Below are positions 12,104-46,418 of a DNA stretch of 64,000 bases, piece after piece. The notes under the pieces were generated by a model, which saw nothing but the letters and a program-made list of their open reading frames with translations, did not search any database and was not told the DNA's origin. The stretch comes from Thermodesulfovibrionales bacterium. GTDB taxonomy: Bacteria > Nitrospirota > Thermodesulfovibrionia > Thermodesulfovibrionales > CALJEL01. Position numbers and translations under genes: made by a program. The stretch is taken from the NCBI GenBank assembly GCA_026417875.1, contig JAOACK010000005.1, forward strand, positions 5,062-69,061, given 5' to 3'. Position 1 is the stretch's first letter, and each line of letters begins with the position of its first letter.

Positions 12104-12106
12104 ATC

Positions 12107-30515: not shown

Positions 30516-31940
30516 ATGAAACATGTAAACTTTTTAAATCGGGGTCAAAACATGATGACTGCAATAAACAGTCCTGAGGCTTCAGGCTTCAGAAAGAAAG
30601 CCCTTGTTGTGGATGATGAATCCATAATAAGACTTTCACTGAAAAAATTTCTTGAGGATGAGGGATTTATCTCCCTTACTTCAAGCACAGGTATGGATGC
30701 CCTTAAAAAGATTGAAGAGGACCATCCAGATTTAGTAATCCTTGATATCCAGCTTCCTGACTCAAATGGATTAAACCTCCTTAAAACAATTAAGGAGATG
30801 AATCCATCAATAACAGTGATCATGATAACAGGGCATGCAGATGTGAAAGGTGCTGTTGAGGCAATGAAGATTGGCGCCCTTGATTATCTTGAAAAACCAA
30901 TAGATTTCAAAAATCTCAAAGAAACCCTTTCAAGATTAAGGTTTGATGTTCAAGAACATGCTACCGAAGCAGAAGGTTTGATTACCTTAAATCCAAGGAT
31001 GAAGGAGATTTACAGGGTAGCAGAAAGGCTCGCCACAAAGTCAGATGTAACAATACTTGTTCTCGGTGAAAGCGGAACCGGTAAAAATTTTCTTTGCAAA
31101 AAACTCCATGATATAAGTCCTAGAAGGAACATGCCTTTTGTAGAGGTAAGCTGTTCAAACATACCCGAACATCTAATAGAAAGTGAGCTTTTTGGATACG
31201 AAAAAGGTGCCTTTACTGATGCAAAGAACCTGAAAAAGGGTCTTGTTGAAATAGCCCATGGAGGAACCATATTCCTTGATGAAATAGGTGACATGCCCTA
31301 TCCTATGCAGTCAAAACTTCTCACTCTTATTGAAGAAAAAAGATTCAGAAGGATCGGGGGTCTGCAGTTCCTAAGAACAGATGTAAGGATACTTGCTGCA
31401 ACCAATAAAAACCTGCAGCAGCTGGTACATGAAGGAAAATTCAGGCTTGACCTTTATTACAGATTAAATGTGGCTACTGTGGAACTGCTACCTCTTAGAG
31501 AAAGAAAGGAAGATATTCCACTACTGGCAAACAATTTCTTAAAACATTACACCGAAAAATACAGTACCGGTAAGAAAACCTTCACAGAGCAAACAATTGA
31601 GGCAATGCAGAGATACAGCTGGCCAGGAAATATAAGGGAATTAAAAAATCTTGTAGAAAAGCTTGTCATACTTTCAAAATCTTATGAGATTGGAATCCAT
31701 GACCTGCCAGAATATTTTTTAAAAAATGAGACAACATGTCCATCAGAGGAATTAAAAACTTTTGAAAGAAGTTTCGCTAACCTCTCGCTTAGGGACATAG
31801 AAATAGAATGTATAAGAAAAGCCCTCCAAATTGCCAGAGGAAATCAAAAAAAGGCTGCTGAACTGCTCAATATAAGCAGGGATACACTCCGCTACCGCTT
31901 AAAAAAACTAGGTATCAGGGCTTCAGAATACAAAAGGTGA
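30516..31940 (+). CDS. Sigma-54-dependent response regulator (NtrC-family bEBP: REC + AAA+ + Fis-type HTH)
   Basis: 474 aa.
- Receiver domain: ALVVDDE ... LVILDIQLPDSNG.
- AAA+ domain: Walker A GESGTGKN, sigma-54 contact loop ELFGYEKGAFTDA, and Walker B IFLDEIGDM.
- C-terminal HTH: GNQKKAAELLNISRDTLRYRLKKLGI.
The true start may be the internal ATG near 30552. Confidence 0.9.
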   Translation: MKHVNFLNRGQNMMTAINSPEASGFRKKALVVDDESIIRLSLKKFLEDEGFISLTSSTGMDALKKIEEDHPDLVILDIQLPDSNGLNLLKTIKEMNPSITVIMITGHADVKGAVEAMKIGALDYLEKPIDFKNLKETLSRLRFDVQEHATEAEGLITLNPRMKEIYRVAERLATKSDVTILVLGESGTGKNFLCKKLHDISPRRNMPFVEVSCSNIPEHLIESELFGYEKGAFTDAKNLKKGLVEIAHGGTIFLDEIGDMPYPMQSKLLTLIEEKRFRRIGGLQFLRTDVRILAATNKNLQQLVHEGKFRLDLYYRLNVATVELLPLRERKEDIPLLANNFLKHYTEKYSTGKKTFTEQTIEAMQRYSWPGNIRELKNLVEKLVILSKSYEIGIHDLPEYFLKNETTCPSEELKTFERSFANLSLRDIEIECIRKALQIARGNQKKAAELLNISRDTLRYRLKKLGIRASEYKR

Positions 31941-33693: not shown

Positions 33694-34667
33694 CTCTCCC
33701 TCTTCAGTTTGAATACCTGAATCCTCTGGTTATAGGTATCACATATATAAATATTCTCTGAAGTATCAATAAATATACAGGAAGGTAGCCAGAACTCAGC
33801 CTCACCCTTTCCCCTGGCACCCAGGGTGAGGAGAAATTCCCCTTTTTCATTGAAAAGCTGAACATTATCAAAAAGGGCATCAACCACATAGATTATCCCG
33901 TCCCTGTCAGCTCCCACTCCCTTGGGCATGGCAAAGTCTCCAGAACCATTTCCATGGTGACCGAAGAGATTTATAAGTGAACCGTCCTTTCTGAAAATCT
34001 GTATTCTGAAATTCATTGCATCAGTAACATACAGTCTGTCAGAAAGAGCTATATAAGTCGGAAAATTGAATTTCCCCGGCTCCTCTCCCCTTCCACCAAA
34101 GTGAAAAAGAGGCTTACCATCATGATAAACTGCACTCACAACATTTCTTAAAGTATCAACAACATAAAGGATTCCGGTCTCTCTGTCACAAACAAGCCCT
34201 GTAGGTTTGCTGAAACCATCTATAAATCCTCCATATCTACCTTCACTATCATATATAAAAACCTTTCCACGTAGAGAATCACTTACATAAAGTCTGTTAC
34301 TTTCATCAAAGGCAACACCAGCAGGTGAAAGAAGTTCACCGGAATCTATTTTGAAGAGGGTAATATATCTGCCATCCTCGGGTATAAAAAGATGAACACA
34401 TCCGCAACCACCATCAGCTATAGCAATCCTTCCATCACTTCCTTTTGCAAATGCCAGGGGTTTAATAAGCCTCACTTCCGTTCTACCAGTAAAAAAAGAA
34501 CGTAGGATATAATTTTTTTCCTTAAAACCATAAATCATTCCACCATAAACAATCTTACCGGACTGGTGGTACCATGAATGAGTCTTGGAAGAATCCTCAT
34601 GAAGAATGGACCATGAAGATGCACAGGCTGAAATGAAAAATATAATTAAAACAGGCAGCAGCTTCAT
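33690..34667 (-). CDS. NHL-repeat six-bladed beta-propeller lipoprotein
   Basis: 325 aa with a lipobox (FFISAC). NHL-type blades repeat throughout (PTGLVCDRETGILYVVDTLRN, PKGVGADRDGIIYVVDALFDNVQLFNEKGEF, IYICDTYNQRIQVF). Confidence 0.8.
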   Translation of the reverse strand: MKLLPVLIIFFISACASSWSILHEDSSKTHSWYHQSGKIVYGGMIYGFKEKNYILRSFFTGRTEVRLIKPLAFAKGSDGRIAIADGGCGCVHLFIPEDGRYITLFKIDSGELLSPAGVAFDESNRLYVSDSLRGKVFIYDSEGRYGGFIDGFSKPTGLVCDRETGILYVVDTLRNVVSAVYHDGKPLFHFGGRGEEPGKFNFPTYIALSDRLYVTDAMNFRIQIFRKDGSLINLFGHHGNGSGDFAMPKGVGADRDGIIYVVDALFDNVQLFNEKGEFLLTLGARGKGEAEFWLPSCIFIDTSENIYICDTYNQRIQVFKLKRER

Positions 34668-35578
34668 CTCTCTAAAACCTTCAATCTTTCTTCGTATATC
34701 TTTATCTCAGCACCTTTTTTTAATTCTTCTTTCCATTCTAACTCCCTCTTTTTCAATGCATTGGGGAAAAGCCTGTTTTCAAGATACACCCTCATCTCCT
34801 CAAGAGATGGGTACCTCTCCCCAGAATAATCAACAAGTTTGATAATATGCAAACCGTCAGTGGACTTAATCAATCCCGATAATTCTCCTGGTTTTAGCTT
34901 TTTTGCCTCTTCATAAAGTTCCTTGTGTTTCTCCCTGTTGAGCCTTATCTGGTTTATTATGAATGTTCCATCCTGAACAAGCCTCCAAGGATCACCATTA
35001 TATTCATTTTTTATTTTTGTAAGGAGTAATTCTGCTTTTTTTTCCATATCATCAGTATCTTTCAGAAATCTCAAATCAACAACTATAACCTTCTCTGGAA
35101 GTTTAAATTTCCCTTTCTCCTTCTCATAGTCAGCCTTTATATCATCCTCAGTAATCACGACTTTTTTTATAACCTCCTCAACATAAAGCATCTCCAGAAG
35201 AAGTTTTCTTTCAATTAATGAATAAAGTGATTCCTCTGATAAACCCTCTTTTTTAAGATAATCCGAGAATCCTCTTTCTCCAAGTCCTATTTTCAGTTCC
35301 ATAATTGCATTTTTAACATTTTTTTCATCAACTGTCATGCCAAGCTTTTTTGCTCTCTGAAAGGCTAGCTCTTCTATGATAATATTCTCAAGTATTTCTC
35401 TTACAGAGTCAACTGACGATGAGCCGACCTTTTGAGACAACAAATTCAGAAAATTAGAAAGATATACGGGATTTCCGTTTATCTCAGCAACGACGGCCTC
35501 TGGAAGCCTCTCCTCTGCAGAAATAGTATGAGCTAACAGAAGAACAATTATTAAACCCATAATAAAAAATCTAATCAT
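34664..35578 (-). CDS. SurA/PrsA-like parvulin-type peptidyl-prolyl isomerase (periplasmic chaperone)
   Basis: 304 aa with a signal peptide, a SurA-N-like helical region and a parvulin core (LKPGELSGLIKSTDGLHIIKL). Confidence 0.72.
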   Translation of the reverse strand: MIRFFIMGLIIVLLLAHTISAEERLPEAVVAEINGNPVYLSNFLNLLSQKVGSSSVDSVREILENIIIEELAFQRAKKLGMTVDEKNVKNAIMELKIGLGERGFSDYLKKEGLSEESLYSLIERKLLLEMLYVEEVIKKVVITEDDIKADYEKEKGKFKLPEKVIVVDLRFLKDTDDMEKKAELLLTKIKNEYNGDPWRLVQDGTFIINQIRLNREKHKELYEEAKKLKPGELSGLIKSTDGLHIIKLVDYSGERYPSLEEMRVYLENRLFPNALKKRELEWKEELKKGAEIKIYEERLKVLER

Positions 35579-35586: not shown

Positions 35587-37596
35587 CTAAAAAAGTTTTC
35601 TTTTTATATTTATATAAAACAGTTCAGAAAATCTTCTTGTATCCATATTATCTGAATGGGTCCTGCTCCACTGAAGATTTAGACCACCTGTAAGCTCAAG
35701 CATGCCTGACCTGAATGAAAGAGAAGAAGAAAGTAAATAGGCATCAGCATCGGAAAGAGAGTCCCTTCTTGTATACTTTGCCCCGCCATTCAACCAGAGG
35801 TTCCTGTAAAACTTTCTTCTTATATCAATAGCTGCTCCCTTTGTTGTCTCCTTGTAATCTCTTCTGGTCATGTAACCTTTCTGATACCAGGTCTCTGAAT
35901 AGAATATCTTTGATAGGATGTTAAAATTAGGATTTAGGTCTATTCCATATCTGAATTCTGCTCTGAAGGACTCTGAGGGATTTATGTTTGAATCAACATT
36001 CTGATACTGCAGAAAAATATTATAAGGCTTCCGTGAAATAATCAAGCCGACAGTATCTATCTCTGTATCAGGAAGTCTTCCCTCATAGAAACCGGACCTA
36101 AGGTATGTTTTCAGACTGTTATGGCTGTAATAGGGAGATAGAAGATTATTGAATAAATCAAGTCGCAGGTTATAACCATGGGTATCTGTTTTTAATTCAA
36201 CATCCCTGGCCTCTGTTCTATAGGATACAAAGAATTGGTAGGTTGTTATTGACGGATCTGTGCTCCATGCTCCTGGAGGTAGGTCAAGGATTCTGATTCT
36301 TGTAATATCCCCTATCTCTATGACCTCGTAATGAATTACCGGCGTGAGCAGGTAAAGCATCCTGTTATCAGGATTCTCGACATAGACTTCTATAGATTGT
36401 ATAAGGACATTTCTTTCATTCAGATCAAATTCATCATTACCTATGATACCCGGCTGTGCAGAATGGGGTTCTTTAATTATGCTCATTTCTCCCTTTCTAT
36501 CATGAAGGGATGTTCCCAAGTTAAAACCCGCAGTAAATCTACCACCCCTTATAGACTTTGTATAATTTGTTGAAAAAAAGTGAGAGGTTGTCTTGATCTC
36601 GCTCTGAATAGTTCTTAGAAGATTATCCTCAAAAGACATTGATGACAGGTAATTGAACCGGTAAGTGGTGCTCAAACTTGCAAATAACTGATGGGAAAGG
36701 CTGAAAAGGCCACTATTTACCTCACGCTCTCTTTTAATCCTCTTATCAGCGGTACTTTCATCTTTTGTATAACTGAATGATAGACCTGATGAAAAATTAA
36801 AGGGTAACCTCAGTAACAGTCTCTCAGACCAGTTGAAAGAATCAATATCCTGTTTAAGCAGGTCTCTGTGTGTTGAATGGTCAAAGGATAAAGATGAATT
36901 AAGATTAAAGAATCCAAGATTTATACCATTACCTAACTGATAAAGTTCTCTTGAATCTGAACCAGGGGATTCACTCTTTAAAAAAGAACCTGTAAATGAA
37001 AGGCTCCTTCCACCTTTGAATTCCTTAAAGTACCTCATGCTATTACTGAATAGTCTTGTATCATATCTTATATCTTCCTGATGGGTGGAAACCTGAGAGT
37101 AGAGCATATTAAGAAAATAAGGTTTTTTTTCATATTTGAATTTCCCACCTTCAATGGTAATCACAGCAGGTGATATCCTCATGAGACCCTGCCTTGAAAG
37201 CGGTTCTTTTCTGATAAAGAAGAGCTCAAGATTATAAGGATGTTCAGGAAGAATAAAGTTCCTCCATTCGTATTCAAATGATGAAGAAGTCCACCAGGAT
37301 GCCTTACGATTCTCTGTCCTGAAATCCTCATGCTTCAGACCCGCAGATGTCTTTAAATAGATCGTAATAAATCTTGGATGGTATACATAGCCTCTCAGGA
37401 TAAGATTAATTTTTTCCTTGAGAAAAACATCCTGCCTCATGAAACCACTTTCATCTGTTCTATTCTCATCCCTGGTAAAGGAGAAATTTATCTCAAGCTC
37501 ACCCTCTGCATCGTAAAGCCTGGGCGTAAAATCAAGGGCATGGACAGGGCCAATATCCATTAATAAAAGGAACATCATTATTAAAAATAAATTCAT
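35587..37596 (-). CDS. Predicted outer-membrane beta-barrel protein (no recognised family)
   Basis: 669 aa with a signal peptide. Alternating hydrophobic/polar beta-strand patterns rich in Y/F/S/N/R run throughout. The C-terminal residue is aromatic (...INIKRKLF), as in OMP sorting signals. Confidence 0.55.
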   Translation of the reverse strand: MNLFLIMMFLLLMDIGPVHALDFTPRLYDAEGELEINFSFTRDENRTDESGFMRQDVFLKEKINLILRGYVYHPRFITIYLKTSAGLKHEDFRTENRKASWWTSSSFEYEWRNFILPEHPYNLELFFIRKEPLSRQGLMRISPAVITIEGGKFKYEKKPYFLNMLYSQVSTHQEDIRYDTRLFSNSMRYFKEFKGGRSLSFTGSFLKSESPGSDSRELYQLGNGINLGFFNLNSSLSFDHSTHRDLLKQDIDSFNWSERLLLRLPFNFSSGLSFSYTKDESTADKRIKREREVNSGLFSLSHQLFASLSTTYRFNYLSSMSFEDNLLRTIQSEIKTTSHFFSTNYTKSIRGGRFTAGFNLGTSLHDRKGEMSIIKEPHSAQPGIIGNDEFDLNERNVLIQSIEVYVENPDNRMLYLLTPVIHYEVIEIGDITRIRILDLPPGAWSTDPSITTYQFFVSYRTEARDVELKTDTHGYNLRLDLFNNLLSPYYSHNSLKTYLRSGFYEGRLPDTEIDTVGLIISRKPYNIFLQYQNVDSNINPSESFRAEFRYGIDLNPNFNILSKIFYSETWYQKGYMTRRDYKETTKGAAIDIRRKFYRNLWLNGGAKYTRRDSLSDADAYLLSSSLSFRSGMLELTGGLNLQWSRTHSDNMDTRRFSELFYINIKRKLF

Positions 37597-37631
37597 TTCT
37601 AAAAAATCTCGTCTCCATAAATTCTGTAAAA

Positions 37632-38165
37632 TTAATTCTTTAAAATAAATCTATCATTCCCTGAATGGGCATCATGACAGTCAAGACATCTGAGGTCTGA
37701 ATACATATGAACGTCATTCTTGAGGATATCGTTTTTATCATGGCAGTACAGACAGAATTCTCTGGGTTCTGATACAAGCATATAGGCATAGCCTGAACTA
37801 TGAGGCAGATGACAGACCCTGCATCCACCTGCAGCGATTGGACCGTGAATCCATCTATTTTCAATATTCATATCATGACAGTAAAGACATAATTTTTCAG
37901 CAGGCATTATTAATTCATTCGTATCCCTTTTATGACAGCCATAACACATCTTTGCAGCATAGGGACCATGCTCTGTAGGTCTGCCCAGCAGCTTTTTTTC
38001 TGTAGAATCACCGTCCTTTTCTTTTTTTGCAGTTGGCTCAGGCTCTGTTATTTTTGGCGGGGGTACACCATCAAAGAAGAAAGAGAGTATCCTGTATCTC
38101 TTCACTGGGTCAGAGCATCCAGAGATGAACGCTACCATCAGATATATCATCATGAGTCTTTTCAT
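37632..38165 (-). CDS. Pentahaem c-type cytochrome lipoprotein
   Basis: 177 aa with a lipobox (FISGCS). The five motifs are CYGCH, CLYCH, CRVCH, CLYCH and CLDCH. Confidence 0.85.
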   Translation of the reverse strand: MKRLMMIYLMVAFISGCSDPVKRYRILSFFFDGVPPPKITEPEPTAKKEKDGDSTEKKLLGRPTEHGPYAAKMCYGCHKRDTNELIMPAEKLCLYCHDMNIENRWIHGPIAAGGCRVCHLPHSSGYAYMLVSEPREFCLYCHDKNDILKNDVHMYSDLRCLDCHDAHSGNDRFILKN

Positions 38166-38177
38166 GAGTTAACTGAT

Positions 38178-39332
38178 TCAGTCCGATTTTTCACCCTCCG
38201 GTAAACTCTGTCTTTCAAAGACCTGCTGTTTCTTTCTTACCTCCTCCAGAAGTTCCTGATCTGTGCGATACCTCACACCTTTTTGTTTGCCAAAGGCATA
38301 TACATTCACCATCCTGTCACCGAACTGACTTGTAACTATTATAATGTATTCAATTTCAAAATCAGGTGCAGCATACTGTCTGAAATAATCTATATGTTTA
38401 TAATCAATCACTACCTCTGCAGGAAGGATGAGCCTTCCTGGTCTTGTCCCTCCACCACCAAAGAACATGAGAAGAAATCCATCCTTATTAAATATCTGGA
38501 CATTAAAGAATGCAGCATCAACAACATATATCCTGCCTTCTTTATCAACAGCAACACCTCTGGGTCTTGCAAAATGTCCGAGATTAACACCGAGCCTTCC
38601 TACTGTTCCCTTAAAATGACCATCCCTGTCAAATTTTACAATCTGGAACCTTCCTGCATCGCTTACATAAAGAATACCTTCTCTGTCAAAGACAAGATTT
38701 GTTGGTCTGTCAAGCCATTCAGATATATCACCCTTTCTACCAAAGGTTCTGTTGAGTTCACCAGTGAGTTTATCAAATACCTTTATCTCACCGTTCTTTA
38801 TATCAGCTACATATACTTCATCGCCAAAGGCAACGGCATCAACTGGTTTCCAGTCTCCTATAATGCCGAAGGATTTTACATAAAAATCATTTCTATCAAA
38901 CACAACAACCTGTTTTCTAACGGGGTCAGATACATATTTATTCCCCTCTTCATCTATGCTTATATTAACAGGTTGCATGAGCTTTCCCTGACCTATTGCA
39001 CCCTTAAGGTATTCATATCTTTTATTTCTTAAATCAAAGACAATAACACCTGCATTAGTATCACATACATAGATCTTTCCATCGTATATAGCTACTCCAT
39101 AGGGTTTATCAAGCCTCCTTATATCCTCCTTTTCGCCTGTTATGAATTTTTCAAAACTGGATTTTGGAGGTTCAACATCCTTTGCACCTGTAAAGGACAT
39201 GAGAAATTGAATTCTTGGAGGATCGGGCGGTTCAGGAAAAAATACAGCAGGTTCTTTTATCTCCTTTTGGGGTGCAGCGCAAGCAGATATGATAATTATT
39301 AGAAACAGGAGCCCTGATTTTAACGTTGGCAT
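38178..39332 (-). CDS. NHL-repeat six-bladed beta-propeller lipoprotein
   Basis: 384 aa with a lipobox (IIISAC). Its blades include PYGVAIYDGKIYVCDTNAG, PTNLVFDREGILYVSDAGRFQIVKFDRDGHF and PRGVAVDKEGRIYVVDAAFFNVQIFNKDGF. The long plus-strand ORF 38283-39032 is its antisense shadow. Confidence 0.85.
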   Translation of the reverse strand: MPTLKSGLLFLIIIISACAAPQKEIKEPAVFFPEPPDPPRIQFLMSFTGAKDVEPPKSSFEKFITGEKEDIRRLDKPYGVAIYDGKIYVCDTNAGVIVFDLRNKRYEYLKGAIGQGKLMQPVNISIDEEGNKYVSDPVRKQVVVFDRNDFYVKSFGIIGDWKPVDAVAFGDEVYVADIKNGEIKVFDKLTGELNRTFGRKGDISEWLDRPTNLVFDREGILYVSDAGRFQIVKFDRDGHFKGTVGRLGVNLGHFARPRGVAVDKEGRIYVVDAAFFNVQIFNKDGFLLMFFGGGGTRPGRLILPAEVVIDYKHIDYFRQYAAPDFEIEYIIIVTSQFGDRMVNVYAFGKQKGVRYRTDQELLEEVRKKQQVFERQSLPEGEKSD

Positions 39333-39388
39333 TATTAATTTAAAAATTTATTATTATATTCTAAACACTGAAATTATAGCATTTAATT

Positions 39389-39420
39389 AAAAAAGAAGGG
39401 AAGGGGAAACCCTTCCCTTC
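39389..39420 (-). terminator. Rho-independent terminator after the tetrahaem cytochrome gene
   Basis: On the minus strand the sequence reads GAAGGGAAGGG-TTT-CCCCTTCCCTTC followed by TTTTTT, starting 10 nt after the stop codon. Confidence 0.8.
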
Positions 39421-39429
39421 TAATTGAGT

Positions 39430-40218
39430 TTAAGGTGTCTTCTGTCCTTTTGCGTGGCAGGAAAGACAGAGATTGCTGTTAGAGTCGCTCACGTATAGCA
39501 ATTTCTCACCGCTATTTCCAGTGTTATGAACTGCGTGGCAGGTTGAGCATTCCATCTTTCCATTCCAGAGATAGTTGCTAACAGGCACTGTGCCGAAGGT
39601 TGCTGTTGCAGAGTCATAGATTTCAGGATCTTCAGCAGCAACACTGTCATAGTCAAAACCGATTGGATGATGGTTGAGGAGATAGCCATCTTTACCAATT
39701 TTATACTGATCTGCAATAACGCTTCCTCCTGAACTCCTTGATCTTGAATCCTGTGGCGCATGACCATACTCATTAACTGCAACAGTTCCATCATGGCAGC
39801 TTAAGCAGAGAAGTGATACAGAGCCCACTCTGTCAAAATAATCAACGGACTGTGGAGCCTTTGATCCTGCGATGGGTTTATCAGGTCCTGGATCATAGGG
39901 TGCGAAGACCTGAGTGGTGACAGCATGGTTCCATAACGGAAGATAGGTATAGTCAGCAGGTGCCTCAGGACCTGTACCTGCTCCGGCTGCTGTGCTTAAC
40001 TTATATGCATGGTGAGGTGCATGACACCAAACACAGATTCTGTTCAGATAATCAGCTGGTTGAGCAGGATAATTTCCGCCTGGCTGACCCTGCCTTAAAT
40101 CATGGGGTGTGCCATTTATACCTGTACCAGGTGTATAGTTTCCAGTAAAAGCCATTGCTACAGCACATACGAGAATAACCACTAGTAGGCTGAACAAAGG
40201 TATTAAAGACCTTTTCAT
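39430..40218 (-). CDS. Tetrahaem c-type cytochrome (secreted)
   Basis: 262 aa with a signal peptide. The motifs are CVWCHAPH...PLWN (the same N-terminal signature as the 582-aa cytochrome), CLSCH, CSTCH and CLSCH. A strong RBS (AAGGAGG) lies upstream. The codon composition is visibly more G/C-rich than in neighbouring genes. Confidence 0.9.
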   Translation of the reverse strand: MKRSLIPLFSLLVVILVCAVAMAFTGNYTPGTGINGTPHDLRQGQPGGNYPAQPADYLNRICVWCHAPHHAYKLSTAAGAGTGPEAPADYTYLPLWNHAVTTQVFAPYDPGPDKPIAGSKAPQSVDYFDRVGSVSLLCLSCHDGTVAVNEYGHAPQDSRSRSSGGSVIADQYKIGKDGYLLNHHPIGFDYDSVAAEDPEIYDSATATFGTVPVSNYLWNGKMECSTCHAVHNTGNSGEKLLYVSDSNSNLCLSCHAKGQKTP

Positions 40219-40646: not shown

Positions 40647-40745
40647 TAAACAAATGATGAGCCCTTAATCTGACAGGCTTGGAGGTGAAATTCAAATTTT
40701 AACTTAAAAATTTCCTTATTCAAGAAACCTTAAAAGGAGGAACGC

Positions 40746-41141
40746 ATGAAGTTAGTTTGCTGGTTAATAAGCCTGATAGTTCTATCAGGGACAATATTTG
40801 GGGCATCGGAGGGAATGGCTGCCCATCCTGATGTAGCTTTAAGGGATGCAGATGGAAACCTTATTCAACCAGGTTCCAATATACCCTATTCTCCAAAGCA
40901 GACCTGTGGAACTAGCCAGTGCCATGATACCATAGCCTCAAGATACGGGCTGAATAACATCTATGAGCACGGAGTGCTTTATGCACAGAAGGATCACGGT
41001 TCAGGTTCACCATCATACACAAATCCCTACAGTGTGCTCTATCCAGAACATGGAATAACATCCGGCTTTCACTTCCAGCAGGGAAGGGATGTTCCATGGG
41101 GAGATACAGAGAACATATTACGGTGTCCCGTCATTCACTAA
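40746..41141 (+). CDS. N-terminal fragment of a large multihaem cytochrome (signal peptide + CX4CH site)
   Basis: 131 aa with a signal peptide (MKLVCWLISLIVLSGTIFGASEG) and TCGTSQCHD. It ends in ...GFHFQQGRDVPWGDTENILRCPVIH*. The +1 frame is open from about 41059 and carries the plausible continuation QRTYYGVPSFTNSPGMYGKY. Confidence 0.6.
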   Translation: MKLVCWLISLIVLSGTIFGASEGMAAHPDVALRDADGNLIQPGSNIPYSPKQTCGTSQCHDTIASRYGLNNIYEHGVLYAQKDHGSGSPSYTNPYSVLYPEHGITSGFHFQQGRDVPWGDTENILRCPVIH

Positions 41142-41187
41142 CTCACCAGGAATGTATGGCAAGTATTGACCACCTTCAAACCGCCAG

Positions 41188-44010
41188 TTGGCGGACCTAA
41201 CAGAAAGTACACCTGCCAGGTTTGATATGAGCAGCTTTGAGTGGGCTTACGGAAATTGCGCATGGTGCCATCCAGGTGGTGGAAACCTTGAATATGACAG
41301 GGCAGGTTACAGATATGATAACAGACCGAGTGGTCTTATACCTGGTGGAACGGCAAATCCACAGAAGGATAATCACAAAGGTGATTATTATATTTTTGTG
41401 GCTGGAACAGGTATTGTATCAAGGGTAAGTGCCTGGATTAATCAGGGTGTTGGAGAAGCAGACTGCCTTATGTGTCACCTCAATTACCAGAATGCAGGAA
41501 GATTTGCAAATCTGGAGAGAAATTATACTGTGGCTGAACCACCAGCAATAGCTGATGACCCGAAGACACTTAAAGGCCTTAAATTCTCACCAACACTCGG
41601 TCTTGCGAGGACAGGATTGCTTACTGGAATAACCACTGGTTCACCAAATATAAATCCAAGCTTGAGTGGCTGGTCATGGGCAAGCACCACTATTCCCGGG
41701 TCATGGATAACAATGACACCTCCAAAGGAAAACTGTTCCATATGTCATTTTCCTGACAGAAGCTGGTTCGGTCCTTCTGGTTCAGCAAACAGAGGTCCTG
41801 CTGACAGACCTCTTGGATTCACGAGTTTTCAGAAGAGAATTCCAGCAGGTACTGTAACAGATGATGATGAAATAGCTGGTGTTGGTGGAAAGGATGGAAA
41901 GAATGACGCAGCCTGGGACATTGTAAATGGAAGGGTTGAAGGTGGCAAGAGAGGAGAATCCATAAATGATCCCAATAATCCAGATGCCCATATGGATAGA
42001 GGATTTGTATGCGCTACCTGCCATTATACTCTCGGAGATGAAGATGGAGAACTCTACGGACCAAAAAGAGATGCTGCTGGCAACATCGTCGCTCCTCAGG
42101 TAAATATAAAGAAAATAGACCATCAGTTTGCAAAAGGTGATGCCTTCCAGGATACAAAAGGAATGGACCAGGTAGACTACACTGTTACCTGTGAAAGCTG
42201 CCACATAACAAAGACCCATCCTAATGCAGGAAATGCACCTACACCCACACATGCTGGATTCCCATCAGTACACTTTGTAAAGATACATTGCAAAACCTGT
42301 CATATTCCCGTAGTGAATGGTCCGGTAAAACAATTCTTAGCTGATTTCTCAGCAGGACCATACAGGGGATTTGCAAGGGTTCAGTCAGTTGAGATGCCTT
42401 CAACAGGAATAGGTCTTAAGCCCCTTAAGACCTGGCAGAAAAGAGAGGATGGCATAAAGCTCGTACCACACGGTACAATGGCTGCCAGTGTATGGGTAGA
42501 TGGTTCTCCAGCTAAACCCACATTCCAGAGATATGCAAGGGCTGTGGCTGTAAATTACAGGGCATTTGTGGGAGATGCAAATGGAGATGGCCTTTATGAC
42601 TGGCCCCTTAACAGACCGCATGATGGTGGCACAAGGGTAAGCCATATAGTTAATGATCCTCCTGAGATTGCTGGTTTTGTGGCAAGGCTTAATAACCCAA
42701 CAGGTTTTGGAATCTCAGGTGTTCCATCCATATCTGATCCTGTACTCAACATATACAATATAGTATTCAGCATAAGCCACAATATCCAGCCTATCACAAG
42801 GGATGCTCAGGGAAAACCCGTACCAGGTCCTCTCAAAACTTATACATTTACTAAACCAGATGGTACAACTGGCACCTTCCAGAGAAACACCGGACCTCTT
42901 GGTATAAATGGTTGTGTAGAGTGCCATTCCAGTTCAGATCCAAACTCAAAAAATTACAGCCCTAAGTCTATTGGTTTCTTTGATATGGATTACACACTCT
43001 ATCTAAACTCATCAAGACTTACCCAGACATGCACGGATAGTGCTGGAAACATTGATCCTAACTGCACAACTGGAAAAAGAAGGGTGAGATATGTGCTTAG
43101 CTATAAAAATCCAGATGGAAGCTCAAACATCATAGACCTTGGTTCAAGGGCCGCTCACGGTCAGACTGTTCCAAATACCGTTAATCAGGCTGAGGTAATG
43201 GGATACAGCTCCTATGATGTAACCATGCTCACAGATCCTGCAACTGCAGGTATACCAAAACCCAGAGCCCAATTCGCCTATTCCCTGAACGGTCTTAACA
43301 TCTCTGTGAAAACCTCTACCGCTTCATGTTCAAGCACCAGCTGTTCCTATAACTGGTCATTCGGTGATGGCTCGACTGCATCAGGACTGACTGCCTCTTA
43401 TACATATTCTCAGCCGGGCACCTATACAGTTAAGCTCACTGTTGTTGACAACATCAATTCCACCCAGGATGTTAGATCTATCCCGGTGTCAATTTCAACA
43501 TATGCTGCAAACCGTCCACCTCAGGCAAGCTGGAATATCTCAGTGAATCAGAACTCCTGGACTGTATCTATTACTGATACCTCTACTGATCCAGATGGTA
43601 ATCTTTCAAGCATTACAATTAACTGGGGAGATGGTTATGTACAGACTCTTTCACCCGGAGCTACTGTGACCCGTACCTATGCAACACAGGGCTCTTATTC
43701 CATTACACTGACTGCAAAGGACTCCACTGGCGCTAAGTCCTCTGTATCACAGATTGTCTCCTTCTCCAGATTCAAGATCACTGGATCTGTTACTAATTCA
43801 AGTGGTAACCCGGTTGGCGGCGCAACCCTTAAACTCTATAAAGGCTCAACACTTCTGAAAACCTCTTACTCAACTACAGCAGGCTCTTTCTCCTTCACTT
43901 ATCTTAAACCCGGTACATACACAATTAAAACCACCAAATCTGGTTACACATTCCCTGATACAGAGGTAACTGTTGGACCTGACCAGTCTGTGACCATTCG
44001 GGCTCAGTAA
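41188..44010 (+). CDS. Main body of the large extracellular multihaem cytochrome (7 CXXCH, two PKD domains, CarboxypepD_reg-like C-terminal domain)
   Basis: - 940 aa as listed in the track, which uses a TTG start with no signal peptide.
- The frame is actually open upstream to the UGA at 41167-41169 and, beyond it, to about 41059.
- Haem motifs: CAWCH, CLMCH, CSICH, CATCH, CESCH, CKTCH, CVECH.
- PKD-like repeats: YNWSFGDGSTASG...YTVKLTVVD and INWGDGYVQTL...YSITLTAKD.
- C-terminal domain: ITGSVTNSSGNPVGGATLKLY...GTYTIKTTKSGYTF. Confidence 0.75.
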   Translation: MADLTESTPARFDMSSFEWAYGNCAWCHPGGGNLEYDRAGYRYDNRPSGLIPGGTANPQKDNHKGDYYIFVAGTGIVSRVSAWINQGVGEADCLMCHLNYQNAGRFANLERNYTVAEPPAIADDPKTLKGLKFSPTLGLARTGLLTGITTGSPNINPSLSGWSWASTTIPGSWITMTPPKENCSICHFPDRSWFGPSGSANRGPADRPLGFTSFQKRIPAGTVTDDDEIAGVGGKDGKNDAAWDIVNGRVEGGKRGESINDPNNPDAHMDRGFVCATCHYTLGDEDGELYGPKRDAAGNIVAPQVNIKKIDHQFAKGDAFQDTKGMDQVDYTVTCESCHITKTHPNAGNAPTPTHAGFPSVHFVKIHCKTCHIPVVNGPVKQFLADFSAGPYRGFARVQSVEMPSTGIGLKPLKTWQKREDGIKLVPHGTMAASVWVDGSPAKPTFQRYARAVAVNYRAFVGDANGDGLYDWPLNRPHDGGTRVSHIVNDPPEIAGFVARLNNPTGFGISGVPSISDPVLNIYNIVFSISHNIQPITRDAQGKPVPGPLKTYTFTKPDGTTGTFQRNTGPLGINGCVECHSSSDPNSKNYSPKSIGFFDMDYTLYLNSSRLTQTCTDSAGNIDPNCTTGKRRVRYVLSYKNPDGSSNIIDLGSRAAHGQTVPNTVNQAEVMGYSSYDVTMLTDPATAGIPKPRAQFAYSLNGLNISVKTSTASCSSTSCSYNWSFGDGSTASGLTASYTYSQPGTYTVKLTVVDNINSTQDVRSIPVSISTYAANRPPQASWNISVNQNSWTVSITDTSTDPDGNLSSITINWGDGYVQTLSPGATVTRTYATQGSYSITLTAKDSTGAKSSVSQIVSFSRFKITGSVTNSSGNPVGGATLKLYKGSTLLKTSYSTTAGSFSFTYLKPGTYTIKTTKSGYTFPDTEVTVGPDQSVTIRAQ

Positions 44011-44019: not shown

Positions 44020-44079
44020 CCGGGCAGAAATGCCCGGCCTTACCTCCCATCCCGTTGCCCGGAGCCATTGGCTCCGGGC
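44020..44079. terminator. Bidirectional terminator pair between convergent genes
   Basis: Hairpin 1 is CCGGGCA-GAAA-TGCCCGG (44020-44037), flanked by an A-run on the plus strand, which is a T-run for mutS2. Hairpin 2 is GCCCGGAGCC-ATT-GGCTCCGGGC (44057-44079), followed by TTTATTTT for the cytochrome gene. Confidence 0.75.
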
Positions 44080-44081
44080 AT

Positions 44082-46418
44082 TTATTTTAACTTTACTATT
44101 GATACTCCGTCTCCACCCTCTTCAGTATTTCCTGGTCTGAAATTATCAACTAGTGGATGGCCTTTAAGATAATCCCTCACTGCCCTTTTAAGTCTTCCTG
44201 TGCCAAGACCGTGAATAATCTTAACTCCACTCAATCCAGCAAGGGAGGCATGATTTAAATAGGTTTCGAGCCTTGAGAGGGCCTCCTCCACAGTCATGCC
44301 TGTTAAATTGATTGATTCAGCAACTCGCTCTTCAGGCATTCTTTCTTCATAACTTTTTAATAATATACCTCTTGGAGCCTCTATATCGCTCAGGGCTACC
44401 TCTGCCTCAAAGGCACCTGCCCTAACCCTGACCCTGTCGGATTCTACCCTCATGACTACACCGTCATAACCAAGGCTTTTGATATAAACCTTTGAGCCAG
44501 GTTCTGGAATAAAGACCTCTTCTTTCTTTTTAAATTCATTTAAAGCCTTTTCAATCTCCATCTCTTTTGCCCTGAGATTTTTAATACTCTCCTTGGGACT
44601 TCTCTTTGCTTCCATAATTAATTTATTAATAAAGACCTTTGTCTCATTCAATAGCTCCTTTGACTCCTCAAGGGCCTTTCTTATAATCTCCTTTTTTTTA
44701 ATTACCAGCTCTGATTCCTTTTCTTGCAGGATCCTTTCTTTTTCAGAAATCTCTTGTTGAAGCTTCCTTAGTCTTTCTAACTCAAGCTCATAAAACTTCT
44801 GCTTTTTCCTAAGATCATCCAGTACAAGCTGAAAGTCAAGCTTGCCCTTTCCAATAAACTCCTTTGCCCTCCGAATAATATTCTCAGGAAGACCGAATCT
44901 CTCTGCTATAGAGATACCATGGGATTGTCCTGGCAGACCCATTCTCAATCTGTAGAGCGGCCTCATCAGGCTTTCGTCAAACTCCATTGAAGCATTAACC
45001 ATACCTTCAGTATTTGAGACAAAGGCAGCAACCTCAAGCAGATGGGTTGTTGCTATAACTGTGCTACCCCTCATCTTTAACTCCTCAAGTATGGCACAGG
45101 AAAGGGCAGCACCTTCTGAGGGATCTGTAGCCCTGCCAATCTCATCAAGAAGCACAAGGACTTCAGGCTTTGACCTATTGATTATATCTGAAACATTCTT
45201 TATATGGCCTGAAAATGTGGAGAGATTTTCCTCTATGGACTGCTCATCACCCATATCAACAAGAACATCACTCACAAAGGGTAAGACCGAGCCAGATTGA
45301 GCCGGAACAGGTATTCCAGAGAGTGCCATGATAGTAAGAAGACCTGCTGTCTTGAGGGCAATGGTCTTTCCTCCAGCATTGGGTCCTGTAATAATCATTA
45401 TCCTGTGAGAACCTCCCAGCTCGAGATCAAGGGGAACAACATCCTGAATGACTCTCTTTTCCTTTAGAAGGAGAAGCACTGGATGTCTTGCTCCAAAGAG
45501 CTGGAGTCTCTGTTCACTGTCTATCTCAGGCTCGGTCAGTCCGAGCCTTTCAGAGAATAAGGCAATGCTTCTTAATAGGTCAAAATAAATAAGGTTTCCA
45601 TAAGAGGCTTCTATTTTAGAAAGATCTGCCCTCAAAAGAGAGGATATACCTCTCAATACCCTTATCTCCTCTGCCTTTTCCTCTGCAATTATATTTTCGT
45701 GCTCATTGGCAAGTTCGACAATCTCAAGGGGTTCAACATAAAGGGTCTCGCCTGTCCTTGAGATATCATGTATAACACCTGGAATCTTTCCCTTAAAATC
45801 AGCCTTCAATGGAATAACCCACCTTCCTCCTCTGATGGTAACATATTCATCCTGAATAGCAGGTGCTAATTCCCTTGCATGGATAATTTCATCTAGCCTT
45901 TTTCTGATCCCCTGCTCGAGATTCCTTTTTCTCCTTCTAATTTCCCTCAATTCATGAGATGCTGTATCGAGGATATTACCTTCATGGTCGACAGACCTGT
46001 CAATAAGATCTATAAGGTCTTTAAAATCACCCATTCCTGAAATTAGATGAGATAAATGGGGAATGTCCTTTGCTGTCCCGACGGAGTTTCTGATTCTCTC
46101 TATGTTTAAAAAGACCTTTCTTAAGGTATAAAGCTCCTCTGGCTCAATAAAAGAACCCTCTGGCCTTAACTTCTGAAGAATTCCTGAAAGATCATCAAAT
46201 TCATCAAGGGCTATCTCCCTTCCCTCAGATATGACCCTTCTCAGTTCAGCCACAAGGTGAAATCTCTTTTCAATCTCATCTTTATAACCCAAAGGCCTTA
46301 TTGAGAGTATGAGCCTCTTAGAGGCAGGACTCCTTGCATAAAGCGAAATCTCCTCAAGGACCTTATGAAACTCAAGAAGCCTTAAAGAATTTTCATCCAT
46401 TCTTAATTTTCCATACAA
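44082..46418 (-). CDS. mutS2: Endonuclease MutS2 (MutS ATPase + C-terminal Smr domain)
   Basis: 778 aa with Walker A (ITGPNAGGKT), a long coiled-coil and a C-terminal Smr domain (VKIIHGLGTGRLKRAVRDYL). Confidence 0.92.
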   Translation of the reverse strand: MYGKLRMDENSLRLLEFHKVLEEISLYARSPASKRLILSIRPLGYKDEIEKRFHLVAELRRVISEGREIALDEFDDLSGILQKLRPEGSFIEPEELYTLRKVFLNIERIRNSVGTAKDIPHLSHLISGMGDFKDLIDLIDRSVDHEGNILDTASHELREIRRRKRNLEQGIRKRLDEIIHARELAPAIQDEYVTIRGGRWVIPLKADFKGKIPGVIHDISRTGETLYVEPLEIVELANEHENIIAEEKAEEIRVLRGISSLLRADLSKIEASYGNLIYFDLLRSIALFSERLGLTEPEIDSEQRLQLFGARHPVLLLLKEKRVIQDVVPLDLELGGSHRIMIITGPNAGGKTIALKTAGLLTIMALSGIPVPAQSGSVLPFVSDVLVDMGDEQSIEENLSTFSGHIKNVSDIINRSKPEVLVLLDEIGRATDPSEGAALSCAILEELKMRGSTVIATTHLLEVAAFVSNTEGMVNASMEFDESLMRPLYRLRMGLPGQSHGISIAERFGLPENIIRRAKEFIGKGKLDFQLVLDDLRKKQKFYELELERLRKLQQEISEKERILQEKESELVIKKKEIIRKALEESKELLNETKVFINKLIMEAKRSPKESIKNLRAKEMEIEKALNEFKKKEEVFIPEPGSKVYIKSLGYDGVVMRVESDRVRVRAGAFEAEVALSDIEAPRGILLKSYEERMPEERVAESINLTGMTVEEALSRLETYLNHASLAGLSGVKIIHGLGTGRLKRAVRDYLKGHPLVDNFRPGNTEEGGDGVSIVKLK

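What the first reader, a model, noticed from the sequence alone, without database searches (positions are those of the whole stretch)
41059..41230. Giant cytochrome gene interrupted by a +1 frame change and an in-frame UGA followed by a GC hairpin at SECIS-like spacing
**Two ORFs are pieces of one gene**
- ORF 40746-41141 carries the signal peptide and the CX4CH site.
- ORF 41188-44010 has no signal peptide and a dubious TTG start.
- The CxxxxCH...CXXCH pairing typical of Geobacter-type cytochromes spans the break.

**Two events separate them**
1. A +1 shift lies somewhere in about 41090-41120. Frame A reads ...WGDTENILRCPVIH*. Frame B reads QRTYYGVPSFTNSPGMYGKY.
2. A UGA lies at 41167-41169 in frame B (GMYGKY-UGA-PPSNRQLADLTE...).

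**Hairpin**
Exactly 11 nt after the UGA lies the hairpin CCGCC-AGUU-GGCGG (41181-41194), which has a GU-containing loop. In E. coli fdhF, the minimal SECIS stem-loop must also sit 11 nt after the UGA.

**Possible explanations**
- A selenocysteine-containing multihaem cytochrome, plus an assembly indel.
- Programmed recoding.
- A very recent pseudogene, since the downstream 2.8 kb is still fully open.
Basis: partly seen in the sequence, partly recalled or inferred. Interest (0 to 1): 0.65.

Follow-up and report, generated by a model that had tools for sequence, protein, structure and literature searches.

The report
Selenocysteine octahaem cytochrome gene, frame broken
The two reading frames are one gene for a secreted eight-haem cytochrome whose in-frame UGA almost certainly encodes selenocysteine, directed by a conserved hairpin; it belongs to a widespread family that gene callers routinely cut in two, and only in this assembly is the gene also broken by a 2-base gap.

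Summary
ORF 40746-41141 and ORF 41188-44010 are halves of one gene. Full-length homologues run straight across the junction.

**The UGA and its hairpin**
- The UGA at 41167-41169 lies in a conserved motif, GMYGKY-U-PPSNRQLA.
- Across 85 distinct related sites, that column is TGA in 30, Cys in 47, Tyr in 6, Asp in 1 and Ser in 1.
- The hairpin CCGCC-AGUU-GGCGG (41181-41194) or a compensated variant follows 27-30 of the 30 TGA sites, but only 2 of the 47 Cys sites (Fisher p about 3e-15).
- Cys genes encode the same R-Q-L-A peptide with other codons.
- This is the signature of selenocysteine with a bacterial SECIS.

**The frame change**
- It is a 2-nt gap between 41106 and 41107.
- All six nearest relatives lack it, so it is not programmed.
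- It is either an assembly error or a recent lesion. Only reads can decide.

**The protein**
- It has eight haem motifs, two PKD domains and a carboxypeptidase-regulatory-like domain.
- A modelled relative matches only Shewanella octahaem tetrathionate reductase.
- It fits neither MccSep/ExtKL nor any curated family.

No sel genes lie in the window.

The parts
40734..40740 (+). Shine-Dalgarno sequence AAGGAGG, 5 nt before the start codon
   Evidence: Read directly from the sequence. No comparable site precedes TTG 41188.
40746..41106 (+). 5' part of the gene in frame 0: start codon, predicted signal peptide (about residues 1-26, inferred from the hydrophobic N-terminus), and conserved N-terminal domain up to ...PWGD
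   Evidence: Aligns with full-length homologues P0004-P0017 up to W-G-D.
40905..40925 (+). First haem-binding motif, C-GTSQ-CH (CX4CH)
   Evidence: C54, C59 and H60 are invariant in alignment A1. The spacer varies from 2 to about 21 residues among homologues.
41106..41107 (+). Site of the private 2-nt gap that moves the reading frame by +1 (window GATA--CAG; relatives GATACCCAG, GATATCCAG or GACACACAA)
   Evidence: DNA alignment with L001, L003, L004, L005, L006 and L084. All six relatives stay in frame.
41107..41166 (+). Coding segment in frame +1 from QRTYYG... to ...GMYGKY, directly before the Sec codon
   Evidence: Frame B translation matches the homologue consensus Q-R-x-Y-Y-G...S-P-G-M-Y-G-K-Y.
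41167..41169 (+). In-frame UGA read as selenocysteine
   Evidence: The same column is TGA at 30 distinct related sites, Cys (TGY) at 47, and another residue at 8. It is Cys in 8 of 13 full-length homologues. TGA is otherwise the commonest ordinary stop in the window, 22 of 42 long ORFs.
41181..41194 (+). SECIS hairpin: stem 41181-41185 pairs with 41190-41194; apical loop AGUU 41186-41189. The stem starts 11 nt after UGA and the loop 16 nt after.
   Evidence: Present at 27-30 of 30 TGA sites against 2 of 47 Cys sites. Compensatory changes were counted: pair 8-21 is CG14/UA8/GC1/UG1, pair 9-20 is CG21/AU3, pair 11-18 is CG21/UA1/UG1. Covariation score 0.313 against 0.111 for shuffles, 0 of 500 shuffles as high.
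41170..44010 (+). Rest of the coding region to the stop codon: seven CXXCH haem motifs (the second, CAWCH, at 41257-41271), then C-terminal domains
   Evidence: ORF list and translation. Homologues align over the whole length.
43255..43770 (+). Two PKD domains (approximate limits)
   Evidence: Pfam PKD_4 9.6e-24 and PKD 3.5e-20, two stretches each; best stretch at ORF-B residues 708-763.
43777..44001 (+). Carboxypeptidase-regulatory-like (prealbumin-fold) domain
   Evidence: Pfam CarboxypepD_reg 1.9e-11, ORF-B residues 864-938.
44056..44090 (+). Terminator-like hairpin (11 pairs, 9 G-C) followed by a T-rich tail, 46 nt after the stop codon
   Evidence: Consensus scan only.

Best explanation
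**What it is.** Bases 40746-44010 are a single gene for a secreted octahaem c-type cytochrome. It has one CX4CH and seven CXXCH motifs, two PKD domains and a carboxypeptidase-regulatory-like domain. It is a selenoprotein.

**How the UGA is read.**
- UGA 41167-41169 is decoded as selenocysteine.
- The hairpin 41181-41194 is the bacterial SECIS.
- As the ribosome reaches the UGA, SelB-GTP carrying Sec-tRNA(Sec) binds the apical loop (AGUU, G and U exposed) and delivers Sec in place of release factor 2.
- The Sec lies in the conserved motif G-M-Y-G-K-Y-U-P-P-S-N-R-Q-L-A, between the first and second haem sites.
- By analogy it is the reactive residue of a respiratory reductase at or outside the cell surface.

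**The frame change.**
- In this assembly the gene is also broken, 60 nt upstream of the UGA, by a 2-nt gap between 41106 and 41107.
- No relative shares the gap.
- It is either a sequencing or assembly error, or a very recent inactivating deletion. It is not a programmed event.

**Shown versus inferred.**
- Shown: gene unity, conservation of the UGA, Sec/Cys alternation, hairpin covariation and its tie to TGA, and that the gap is private to this assembly.
- Inferred: SelB dependence, actual selenium incorporation, the catalytic role, and the protein's location.
For: **One gene**
- Thirteen full-length homologues span the junction...HFQQGR..PWGxxQRxYYG..SPGMYGxxCP..NRQLA..CAWCH.
- A strong Shine-Dalgarno sequence precedes only ATG 40746.

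**Conserved UGA**
- L001, L003, L004, L005 and L006 (55-82% identical) have the identical GMYGKY-TGA-PPSNRQLA with both halves in one frame.
- Over 85 distinct sites the column is TGA 30, Cys 47, Tyr 6, Asp 1, Ser 1, spread across at least five subgroups and many phyla.
- Read-through translations give complete signal-peptide-bearing cytochromes with 7-16 CxxCH motifs.

**SECIS**
- The hairpin is present at 27-30 of 30 TGA sites and 2 of 47 Cys sites (Fisher p 3e-15).
- Cys genes encode the same R-Q-L-A with other codons (CGG CAG CTC GCC and the like).
- Compensatory pairs occur: CCGCC/GGCGG, UCGCC/GGCGA, CCGUC/GACGG, UCCAGCC/GGCUGGA, UCGAGCC/GGCUCGA.
- The five inner pairs are paired in 118 of 120 cells. 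Over all eight counted pairs the figure is 79%. Sliding the 3' partner drops pairing to 27-58%.

**No general reassignment of UGA**
- 22 of 42 long ORFs in the window end in TGA.

**Gene callers are fooled in the same way elsewhere**
- About 40 of the 58 closest protein clusters start at LADL... (the TTG in the loop) or MSS[FY]..., just after the site.
- So do 39 of 128 further representatives.

**Private gap**
- DNA alignment.
- Other long ORFs in the window are intact. For example AcrB covers 2-1021 of the 1021-position profile.

**Selenium use in this lineage**
- Sec-type MccSep homologues are reported mainly in Thermodesulfovibrionia within Nitrospirota (PMC13510729).
- selB/selC are described in Nitrospirae (PMC13188914).
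Against: - No selA, selB, selD or tRNA-Sec lies in the 64 kb or in the fetched loci, so the machinery is unverified for this organism.
- The hairpin is short (5 bp), and in this one sequence its folding energy is not unusual (z = -1.4).
- Part of its sequence is constrained by the conserved R-Q-L-A peptide.
- No Rfam family matches.
- There are no protein data.
- If the 2-nt gap is real, this particular copy makes no full-length protein.
- The catalytic role rests on analogy alone. The residue is not universally Cys/Sec in the family: Tyr, Ser, Asp, Leu, Gly and others also occur.
Confidence: 0.85

Rival explanations
1. Sub-alternative A, within the best explanation: the 2-nt gap is a sequencing or assembly error. 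The organism carries an intact, expressed Sec-cytochrome gene.
For: The 2.8 kb downstream stays fully open and 82% identical to its orthologue P0002. The gap would sit in a short C run (relatives read GATACCCAG), a plausible place for a miscall. The neighbouring cytochrome, NHL and 669-aa genes that accompany the gene in L001 and L003 are intact.
Against: All other long ORFs in the window are intact, so the assembly is not indel-prone. No second assembly of the same strain was found for comparison.
Confidence: 0.4
2. Sub-alternative B, within the best explanation: the 2-nt deletion is real and recent. This copy is a fresh pseudogene or a minority strain allele. At most it yields a 131-aa monohaem fragment.
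For: The gap is absent from all six relatives, and nothing compensates for it. The assembly is otherwise clean. ORF B has no Shine-Dalgarno sequence and no signal peptide, so it could not be matured as a c-type cytochrome on its own. Frameshift-degraded cytochrome genes are reported in Shewanella (PMC3769277).
Against: No further lesions have accumulated in 3.2 kb. It is the only copy in the window and sits in a conserved cluster.
Confidence: 0.45
3. The frame change is a programmed ribosomal frameshift (+1 or -2) that acts together with Sec insertion.
For: A -2 slip on ACA-G would reproduce the consensus W-G-D-T-Q-R exactly (my reading of the codons).
Against: None of the six nearest relatives, nor any other homologue, has a frame change here. 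The site has no slippery run, no in-frame stop or rare-codon pause, and no upstream Shine-Dalgarno-like element. A +1 skip would delete a conserved residue.
Confidence: 0.03
4. The UGA is an ordinary stop. These are two separate genes, or decay products, and the hairpin is a by-product of the conserved R-Q-L-A peptide.
For: TGA is the usual stop codon here. The hairpin overlaps codons of a conserved peptide. The single-sequence fold is unremarkable.
Against: The TGA is kept at exactly this column in 30 distinct genes from many phyla, with conserved coding sequence on both sides. Cys replaces it in homologues. Cys genes keep R-Q-L-A but not the hairpin (2 of 47). Stem changes are compensatory, and some cost an amino-acid change, for example Ala to Thr in L003 at 5719. 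The downstream part lacks its own signal peptide and Shine-Dalgarno sequence.
Confidence: 0.03

Closest known systems
MccSep / ExtKL (GSU2937-2936) of Geobacter sulfurreducens, a pentahaem selenocysteine polysulfide reductase (PMC13510729; first predicted in PMC1914089; NCBIfam NF040886)
   Same: Both are periplasmic or secreted multihaem c-type cytochromes with one in-frame UGA, a downstream SECIS-like stem-loop, Cys-type homologues, and annotation as two ORFs. Both are frequent in Desulfobacterota and Thermodesulfovibrionia. The flank U-P-x-x-N-R is shared (GUPTPNR there, YUPPSNR here); I did not test whether this means anything. Functionally it is the best model: a Sec nucleophile next to a catalytic haem.
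   Different: There is no detectable sequence relationship: no NF040886 hit at E <= 0.01. Haem motifs number eight here and five there. Sec is near the N-terminus here (about residue 142, before haem 2), not in a C-terminal Ig-like domain (U325). The C-terminal modules differ (PKD and CarboxypepD_reg).
Octahaem tetrathionate reductase family (Shewanella OTR SO4144, PDB 1SP3; NCBIfam TIGR04315). The 2026 selenoproteome review lists one GenBank-annotated Sec-containing member (PMC13188914).
   Same: Both have eight haems. TIGR04315 is the best, though weak, curated hit for the window protein and its relatives (22-47 bits). The AF2 model of relative P0114 has 1SP3 as its only significant PDB match (E 1.2e-5, TM 0.46 on the target). 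OTR has an unusual active-site haem, ligated by Lys56 (PMC3769277).
   Different: Scores are far below the family cut-off of 375 bits. The proteins are 600-1400 aa against about 440. They have an extra conserved N-terminal region carrying the Sec motif, and the first haem motif has a variable CXnCH spacer. I could not establish whether the Sec aligns with an OTR active-site residue, or with the Sec of the annotated OTR-family selenoprotein.
Bacterial SECIS as defined for E. coli fdhF, and the general bacterial SECIS consensus (my own knowledge of Liu et al. 1998 and Zhang & Gladyshev 2005; not re-read here)
   Same: The stem-loop starts 11 nt after UGA. The apical loop starts 16 nt after UGA. 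G and U are exposed in the loop. The hairpin lies inside the coding sequence.
   Different: The perfect 5-bp stem has a 4-nt loop and no bulged U. The loop AGUU is nearly invariant across phyla. Some subgroups place the same hairpin 17 nt after UGA, or extend the stem to 7-8 bp.

Membership tests
Bacterial selenoprotein gene (UGA-Sec with SECIS) | In-frame UGA kept at the same column in orthologues | tested here: met
   30 distinct TGA sites at the aligned column. The nearest relatives L001 and L003-L006 are identical in motif.
Bacterial selenoprotein gene (UGA-Sec with SECIS) | Homologues with Cys at that column | tested here: met
   47 distinct TGY sites. Cys in 8 of 13 full-length close homologues.
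Bacterial selenoprotein gene (UGA-Sec with SECIS) | Stem-loop just 3' of the UGA, with a G-containing apical loop about 16-37 nt from the UGA | tested here: met
   Stem 41181-41185/41190-41194. Loop AGUU starts 16 nt after UGA. The spacing criterion is from my own knowledge.
Bacterial selenoprotein gene (UGA-Sec with SECIS) | Structure supported by covariation and specific to the UGA forms | tested here: met
   Covariation 0.313 against 0.111 for shuffles, 0 of 500 as high. Hairpin at 27-30 of 30 TGA sites against 2 of 47 Cys sites, p 3e-15.
Bacterial selenoprotein gene (UGA-Sec with SECIS) | selA, selB, selC and selD in the same genome | not testable with these tools
   None in the 64-kb window. 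The checks were ARAGORN, Rfam and Pfam on 41 of the 42 long ORFs. The rest of the genome is not available.
Bacterial selenoprotein gene (UGA-Sec with SECIS) | Selenium in the mature protein | not testable with these tools
   Needs 75Se labelling or mass spectrometry.
MccSep / ExtKL (NF040886) | Match to the family model | tested here: not met
   No NF040886 hit at E <= 0.01 for the fused protein or nine relatives.
MccSep / ExtKL (NF040886) | Five CXXCH motifs followed by a C-terminal Ig-like domain that carries the Sec | tested here: not met
   Eight haem motifs, with Sec between the first and second. MccSep architecture taken from PMC13510729.
Octahaem tetrathionate reductase family (TIGR04315) | Score at or above the curated cut-off (375 bits) | tested here: not met
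   21.8 bits for the fused protein; 28-47 bits for relatives.
Octahaem tetrathionate reductase family (TIGR04315) | Eight c-type haem sites | tested here: met
   CGTSQCH plus seven CXXCH.
Octahaem tetrathionate reductase family (TIGR04315) | OTR fold | tested here: inconclusive
   The model of relative P0114 (pLDDT 66) hits only 1SP3, at E 1.2e-5 and TM 0.30/0.46. The model of P0008 (pLDDT 86) returned only PKD/Ig matches. The window protein itself was not modelled.
Octahaem tetrathionate reductase family (TIGR04315) | Lys-ligated catalytic haem | not tested
   No residue-level alignment to 1SP3 could be obtained.
Programmed ribosomal frameshift | Frame change conserved in orthologues | tested here: not met
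   Six nearest relatives and all full-length homologues are in frame.
Programmed ribosomal frameshift | Slippery or pause motif at the shift site | tested here: not met
   GGA GAU ACA GAG AAC has no homopolymer run, no stop or hungry codon, and no upstream Shine-Dalgarno-like element (direct reading).
E. coli fdhF-type minimal SECIS | 11-nt spacing, GU in the apical loop, bulged U in the upper stem | tested here: inconclusive
   Spacing and loop GU are met. There is no bulged U. Criteria are from my own knowledge.

The most novel reading that the evidence does not exclude
This is a large selenoprotein family not so far recognised as such. Its members are OTR-like octahaem cytochromes found in Nitrospirota, Desulfobacterota, Acidobacteriota, Planctomycetota, Ignavibacteriota, Bacillota (Ammonifex) and others. 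In this family Sec sits in the pocket of a catalytic haem. There it would act either as the nucleophile or, more radically, as an axial selenolate ligand of haem c. The enzyme would be a cell-surface or quinol-linked reductase of sulfur, selenium or metal species.
Probability: 0.35. Interest if true: 0.72.

Novelty: new member of a known kind. Interest (0 to 1): 0.55.

Why it matters
**A likely new selenoprotein family**
- Selenocysteine in multihaem cytochromes was shown biochemically only in 2026 (MccSep).
- The 2026 catalogue of prokaryotic selenoproteins lists three cytochrome-linked families.
- This gene matches none of their models above cut-off. Its best match is a weak one to the tetrathionate reductase family (TIGR04315).

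**The family is large and mis-annotated**
- It has 673 clusters at 50% identity with E <= 1e-30.
- Gene callers routinely cut the Sec forms at the UGA and restart them at the TTG inside the SECIS loop.
- The real proteins, with signal peptide and first haem, are therefore missing from databases.
- Metabolic reconstructions of subsurface Nitrospirota and Desulfobacterota undercount intact extracellular cytochromes.

**Practical uses**
- The very simple, nearly invariant SECIS (NGCC-AGUU-GGCN) gives a marker for repairing these annotations.
- It is also a compact element for testing SelB recognition across phyla.
- A cultivated carrier, Ammonifex thiophilus, makes the prediction directly testable.

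**The frame change** matters only as a quality flag for this assembly, or as a sign of gene loss in this strain.

Tried and rejected
- **PDB by sequence.** The fused protein gave nothing relevant. P0093 gave no hit. A 64-sequence profile gave only weak NrfA-type haem-motif hits at E >= 1.6e-4, with neither OTR nor MccSep.
- **First structure search.** The model of P0008 was swamped by its PKD/Ig domains. I therefore modelled a relative without them.
- **Rfam at gathering thresholds.** No match in the window, so no tRNA-Sec and no known SECIS family.
- **ARAGORN.** No tRNA in the window. No tRNA-Sec in 28 Sec-type loci.
- **Pfam on 41 of the window's 42 long ORFs.** No SelA, SelB or SelD.
- **Other selenoprotein genes in the window.** A scan for further in-frame-TGA gene pairs found none convincing.
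- **Independent assembly of the same strain.** The metagenome scan returned only 4 relatives, the closest 77% identical. This would have settled the 2-nt gap.
- **Overlapping minus-strand ORFs at 12107-14140.** They looked like possible extra frameshifts but are separate pilin-like genes.
- **Literature searches for this family as a selenoprotein.** They found only MccSep, the selenoproteome review and the 2007 prediction of GSU2937-2936.
- **Mapping the Sec onto OTR residues.** I could not do this. No residue-level alignment was obtainable, and I did not write the OTR sequence from memory.

Full report
**Observation.**
- ORF 40746-41141 (131 aa) starts at an ATG preceded by AAGGAGG. It encodes a hydrophobic signal-like N-terminus and CGTSQCH.
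- ORF 41188-44010 (940 aa) lies one frame further on and begins at a TTG with no Shine-Dalgarno sequence.
- In that second frame the sequence stays open back to 41059, apart from a TGA at 41167-41169.
- Eleven bases after the TGA comes CCGCC-AGTT-GGCGG at 41181-41194.

**One gene.**
- I searched with a conceptual fusion and found 157 homologues.
- Thirteen full-length ones align across the junction without interruption. They read ...HGVSAGFHFQQGR..PWGxxQRxYYG.P.FTSSPGMYGxx-C-P..NRQLA...CAWCHPGGG.
- The two ORFs are therefore parts of one coding sequence of about 1088 codons.

**The frame change.**
- Frame A follows the homologues up to P-W-G-D. Frame B follows them from Q-R-T-Y-Y-G onward.
- I aligned the DNA with the six nearest relatives: L001, L004, L005, L006, L084 (74-82% protein identity) and L003 (55%).
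- The window reads GGAGATA--CAGAGAAC where they read GATACCCAG, GATATCCAG or GACACACAA. That is a 2-nt gap between 41106 and 41107.
- In all relatives the small and large called ORFs share one frame.
- The site has no slippery or pausing features. A 1-nt skip would remove a conserved residue.
- The change is therefore private to this assembly and not programmed.
- The rest of the window is not indel-ridden. Long ORFs are intact; for example AcrB covers 2-1021 of the 1021-position profile.
- No second assembly of the strain was found. Error and recent real deletion cannot be told apart here. I rate them about equal.

**The UGA.**
- The five nearest relatives with a resolved site, and second paralogues in L001 and L003, all carry TGA in the same motif: GM[YFW]G[KR]Y-TGA-PPSNRQL[AT].
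- A scan of one genome per GTDB species found 325 related stretches in many phyla.
- Across the 87 loci held plus the window, I aligned the motif in all forward frames and read the codon at the Sec column.
- The 85 distinct sites gave TGA 30, TGY (Cys) 47, TAY (Tyr) 6, GAT 1 and TCA 1.
- TGA occurs in at least five sequence subgroups.
- Reading through it gives complete proteins with signal peptides and 7-16 CxxCH motifs. Some are fused to an FdnI-like cytochrome b.
- UGA is not reassigned in this genome. It ends 22 of 42 long ORFs in the window.
- Sec/Cys alternation at one conserved column is the classical signature of a selenoprotein.

**The hairpin.**
- On its own it is unremarkable (z = -1.4). 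Even so, GC-rich hairpins of this shape occur only 6 times in 64 kb.
- Comparison makes the case:
  - 27 of 30 TGA sites are followed by NGCC-AGTT-GGCN, and the other three by variant hairpins such as CCGC-GGUCUU-GCGG.
  - Only 2 of 47 Cys sites have it (Fisher p 3e-15).
- The peptide R-Q-L-A is conserved in both classes. Cys genes write it as CGG CAG CTC GCC, CGT CAA CTT GCG and so on. Sec genes always use ..C CAG TTG G...
- The stem changes in compensating pairs: CCGCC/GGCGG, UCGCC/GGCGA, CCGUC/GACGG (which costs Ala to Thr), GCAGCC/GGCUGC, UCCAGCC/GGCUGGA and UCGAGCC/GGCUCGA.
- On 24 aligned hairpins:
  - The five inner pairs are paired in 118 of 120 cells.
  - Six of eight pairs show double changes.
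  - The covariation score is 0.313 against 0.111 for shuffles (0 of 500 as high).
  - Sliding the 3' partner destroys pairing.
- The loop starts 16 or 22 nt after the UGA and exposes G and U. As I recall them, these fit the bacterial SECIS rules and the 11-nt spacing of E. coli fdhF.
- Four Cys genes (L040, L059, L065, L066) still keep the hairpin. That looks like recent Sec-to-Cys conversion.

**The protein and its setting.**
- The product has eight haem sites, two PKD domains and a CarboxypepD_reg domain.
- No curated NCBIfam or Pfam family covers the cytochrome part. The best hit is TIGR04315 (tetrathionate reductase octahaem family) at 22 bits against a cut-off of 375. Relatives reach 28-47 bits.
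- An AF2 model of relative P0114 (699 aa, Cys type, pLDDT 66) has one significant PDB match, 1SP3, the Shewanella octahaem tetrathionate reductase (E 1.2e-5).
- Sequence searches of the PDB find nothing closer than NrfA-type haem motifs.
- The family has 673 clusters at 50% identity with E <= 1e-30.
- About 40 of the 58 closest clusters, and 39 of 128 further representatives, begin just after the Sec column. They often start at the TTG inside the SECIS loop ('LADLNET...'). The Sec forms are therefore systematically truncated in databases.
- Upstream on the other strand lie a 262-aa cytochrome, an NHL propeller, a paired-CXXCH cytochrome and a 669-aa protein with no family. The order is the same in L001 and L003.
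- The nearest relatives are Thermodesulfovibrionales MAGs.

**Mechanism.**
- Shown:
  - a conserved UGA;
  - Cys homologues;
  - a UGA-specific, covarying hairpin at SECIS spacing.
- Inferred from established knowledge of bacterial Sec decoding: SelB-GTP carrying Sec-tRNA(Sec) binds the hairpin loop and inserts Sec at UGA 41167.
- Inferred by analogy with MccSep, and with the OTR-like fold: the Sec is the reactive residue of a reductase acting on sulfur or selenium species or similar acceptors.
  - In MccSep a Sec next to a His/Cys-ligated haem is essential for polysulfide reduction (PMC13510729).
- The PKD and prealbumin-like domains, and the cytochrome-b fusions in relatives, suggest a cell-surface or quinol-linked respiratory enzyme.
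- The residue at this column is not always Cys or Sec (Tyr, Ser, Asp, Leu, Gly also occur). Subfamilies may therefore differ in chemistry.

**Comparison with what is known.**
- Multihaem selenoproteins are known. ExtKL/MccSep was predicted in 2007 (PMC1914089) and proven in 2026 (PMC13510729).
- The 2026 review also lists the GSU2204 family and a GenBank-annotated Sec member of TIGR04315 (PMC13188914).
- The present protein fails the model tests for ExtKL and TIGR04315. It also differs in architecture: Sec near the N-terminus, eight haems, and a variable CXnCH first motif.
- I file it as a new member of a known kind: a further, apparently unannotated, selenoprotein family among multihaem cytochromes, distantly OTR-like.
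- I could not test whether its Sec column corresponds to that of the annotated OTR-family selenoprotein.

**Unresolved.**
- The Sec machinery could not be checked. There is no selA/B/D and no tRNA-Sec in the window or the loci.
- Selenium incorporation is untested.
- The nature of the 2-nt gap is undecided.

Noticed in passing
window 35587-40218 (minus strand); L001 1-4498; L003 1-4755: A conserved divergent cluster sits next to the Sec-cytochrome gene. It comprises a 669-aa protein with no Pfam or NCBIfam hit, a 177-aa paired-CXXCH cytochrome, a 384-aa NHL beta-propeller and a 262-aa cytochrome. The order is the same in both relatives. It could be a porin-cytochrome-type conduit, but that was not tested.
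   Followed up: partly
L001 5257 and 9941; L003 5719 and 9941; L010 2152 and 6397; L009 1788 (TGA) and 6424 (TGT): Relatives carry two tandem paralogues of the gene. Usually both have TGA plus hairpin; L009 has one Sec-type and one Cys-type copy. The window has a single copy.
   Followed up: partly
L040 6238, L059 323, L065 1196, L066 4739: These Cys-type (TGT) genes still carry the full UUUCGCC-AGUU-GGCGAAA hairpin. They look like recent Sec-to-Cys conversions. L066 is from a SeepSRB2 bin.
   Followed up: no
window 40905-40925; alignment A1 columns about 77-100: The first haem-binding motif has a variable spacer: CX2CH in P0005, CX4CH in the window, CX7-9CH in P0007 and P0009, and about CX21CH in P0011, P0016 and P0017. 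This recalls the long-spacer motifs that need dedicated haem lyases in MccA-type cytochromes.
   Followed up: no
L033 1932-4496 (Ammonifex thiophilus strain SR); also L076, L063: Some Sec-type family members are fused at the C-terminus to an FdnI-like membrane cytochrome b (TIGR01583, 137 bits, above cut-off). This suggests a self-contained quinol-oxidising reductase. L033 comes from a cultivated isolate.
   Followed up: partly
P0014, P0018, P0027, P0035, P0037, P0038, P0043, P0044, P0046 and others: Database proteins of this family often start with 'LADLNET...'. Gene callers used the TTG inside the SECIS loop as the start codon, exactly as for ORF 41188 in the window.
   Followed up: yes
MccSep peptide in PMC13510729 compared with window 41167-41187: The residues after Sec are alike in two otherwise unrelated cytochrome selenoproteins: G-U-P-T-P-N-R in MccSep and Y-U-P-P-S-N-R here. 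This may be chance, a shared local active-site loop, or a constraint from the SECIS.
   Followed up: no
L039, L050, L061, L067, L071, L080: One subgroup has Tyr (TAY) at the Sec/Cys column (W-Y-P-[YF]-A-[YF]-R-Q-L-A-K). Other members have Ser, Asp, Leu, Gly, His or Met. The site is functionally plastic across the family.
   Followed up: no
L037 3032-7258: A Sec-type relative with at least 16 CXXCH motifs (more than 1400 aa, running off the contig end). Its SECIS stem is 6 bp and the loop starts 22 nt after the UGA.
   Followed up: no
window 8868-9989 (minus strand): This ORF encodes a bacterial eRF1-like protein (baeRF family 10, 4.4e-32). It is an unusual release-factor-like gene. Nothing links it to the UGA recoding.
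   Followed up: no
window 28955-30211, 31945-33693, 33690-35578, 30516-31940, 27376-28809: The surrounding region holds further multihaem cytochromes (418 aa with five paired-CXXCH units; 582 aa), a second NHL propeller, a SurA-like chaperone, a sigma-54 activator and a histidine kinase. The whole region looks like an electron-transfer island.
   Followed up: partly
window 10614-18342 (minus strand): A pilin-like cluster (N-methyl motif, PilW-like) lies next to a 1401-aa protein with He_PIG and dockerin domains. The overlapping ORFs are separate genes, not frameshift fragments.
   Followed up: partly
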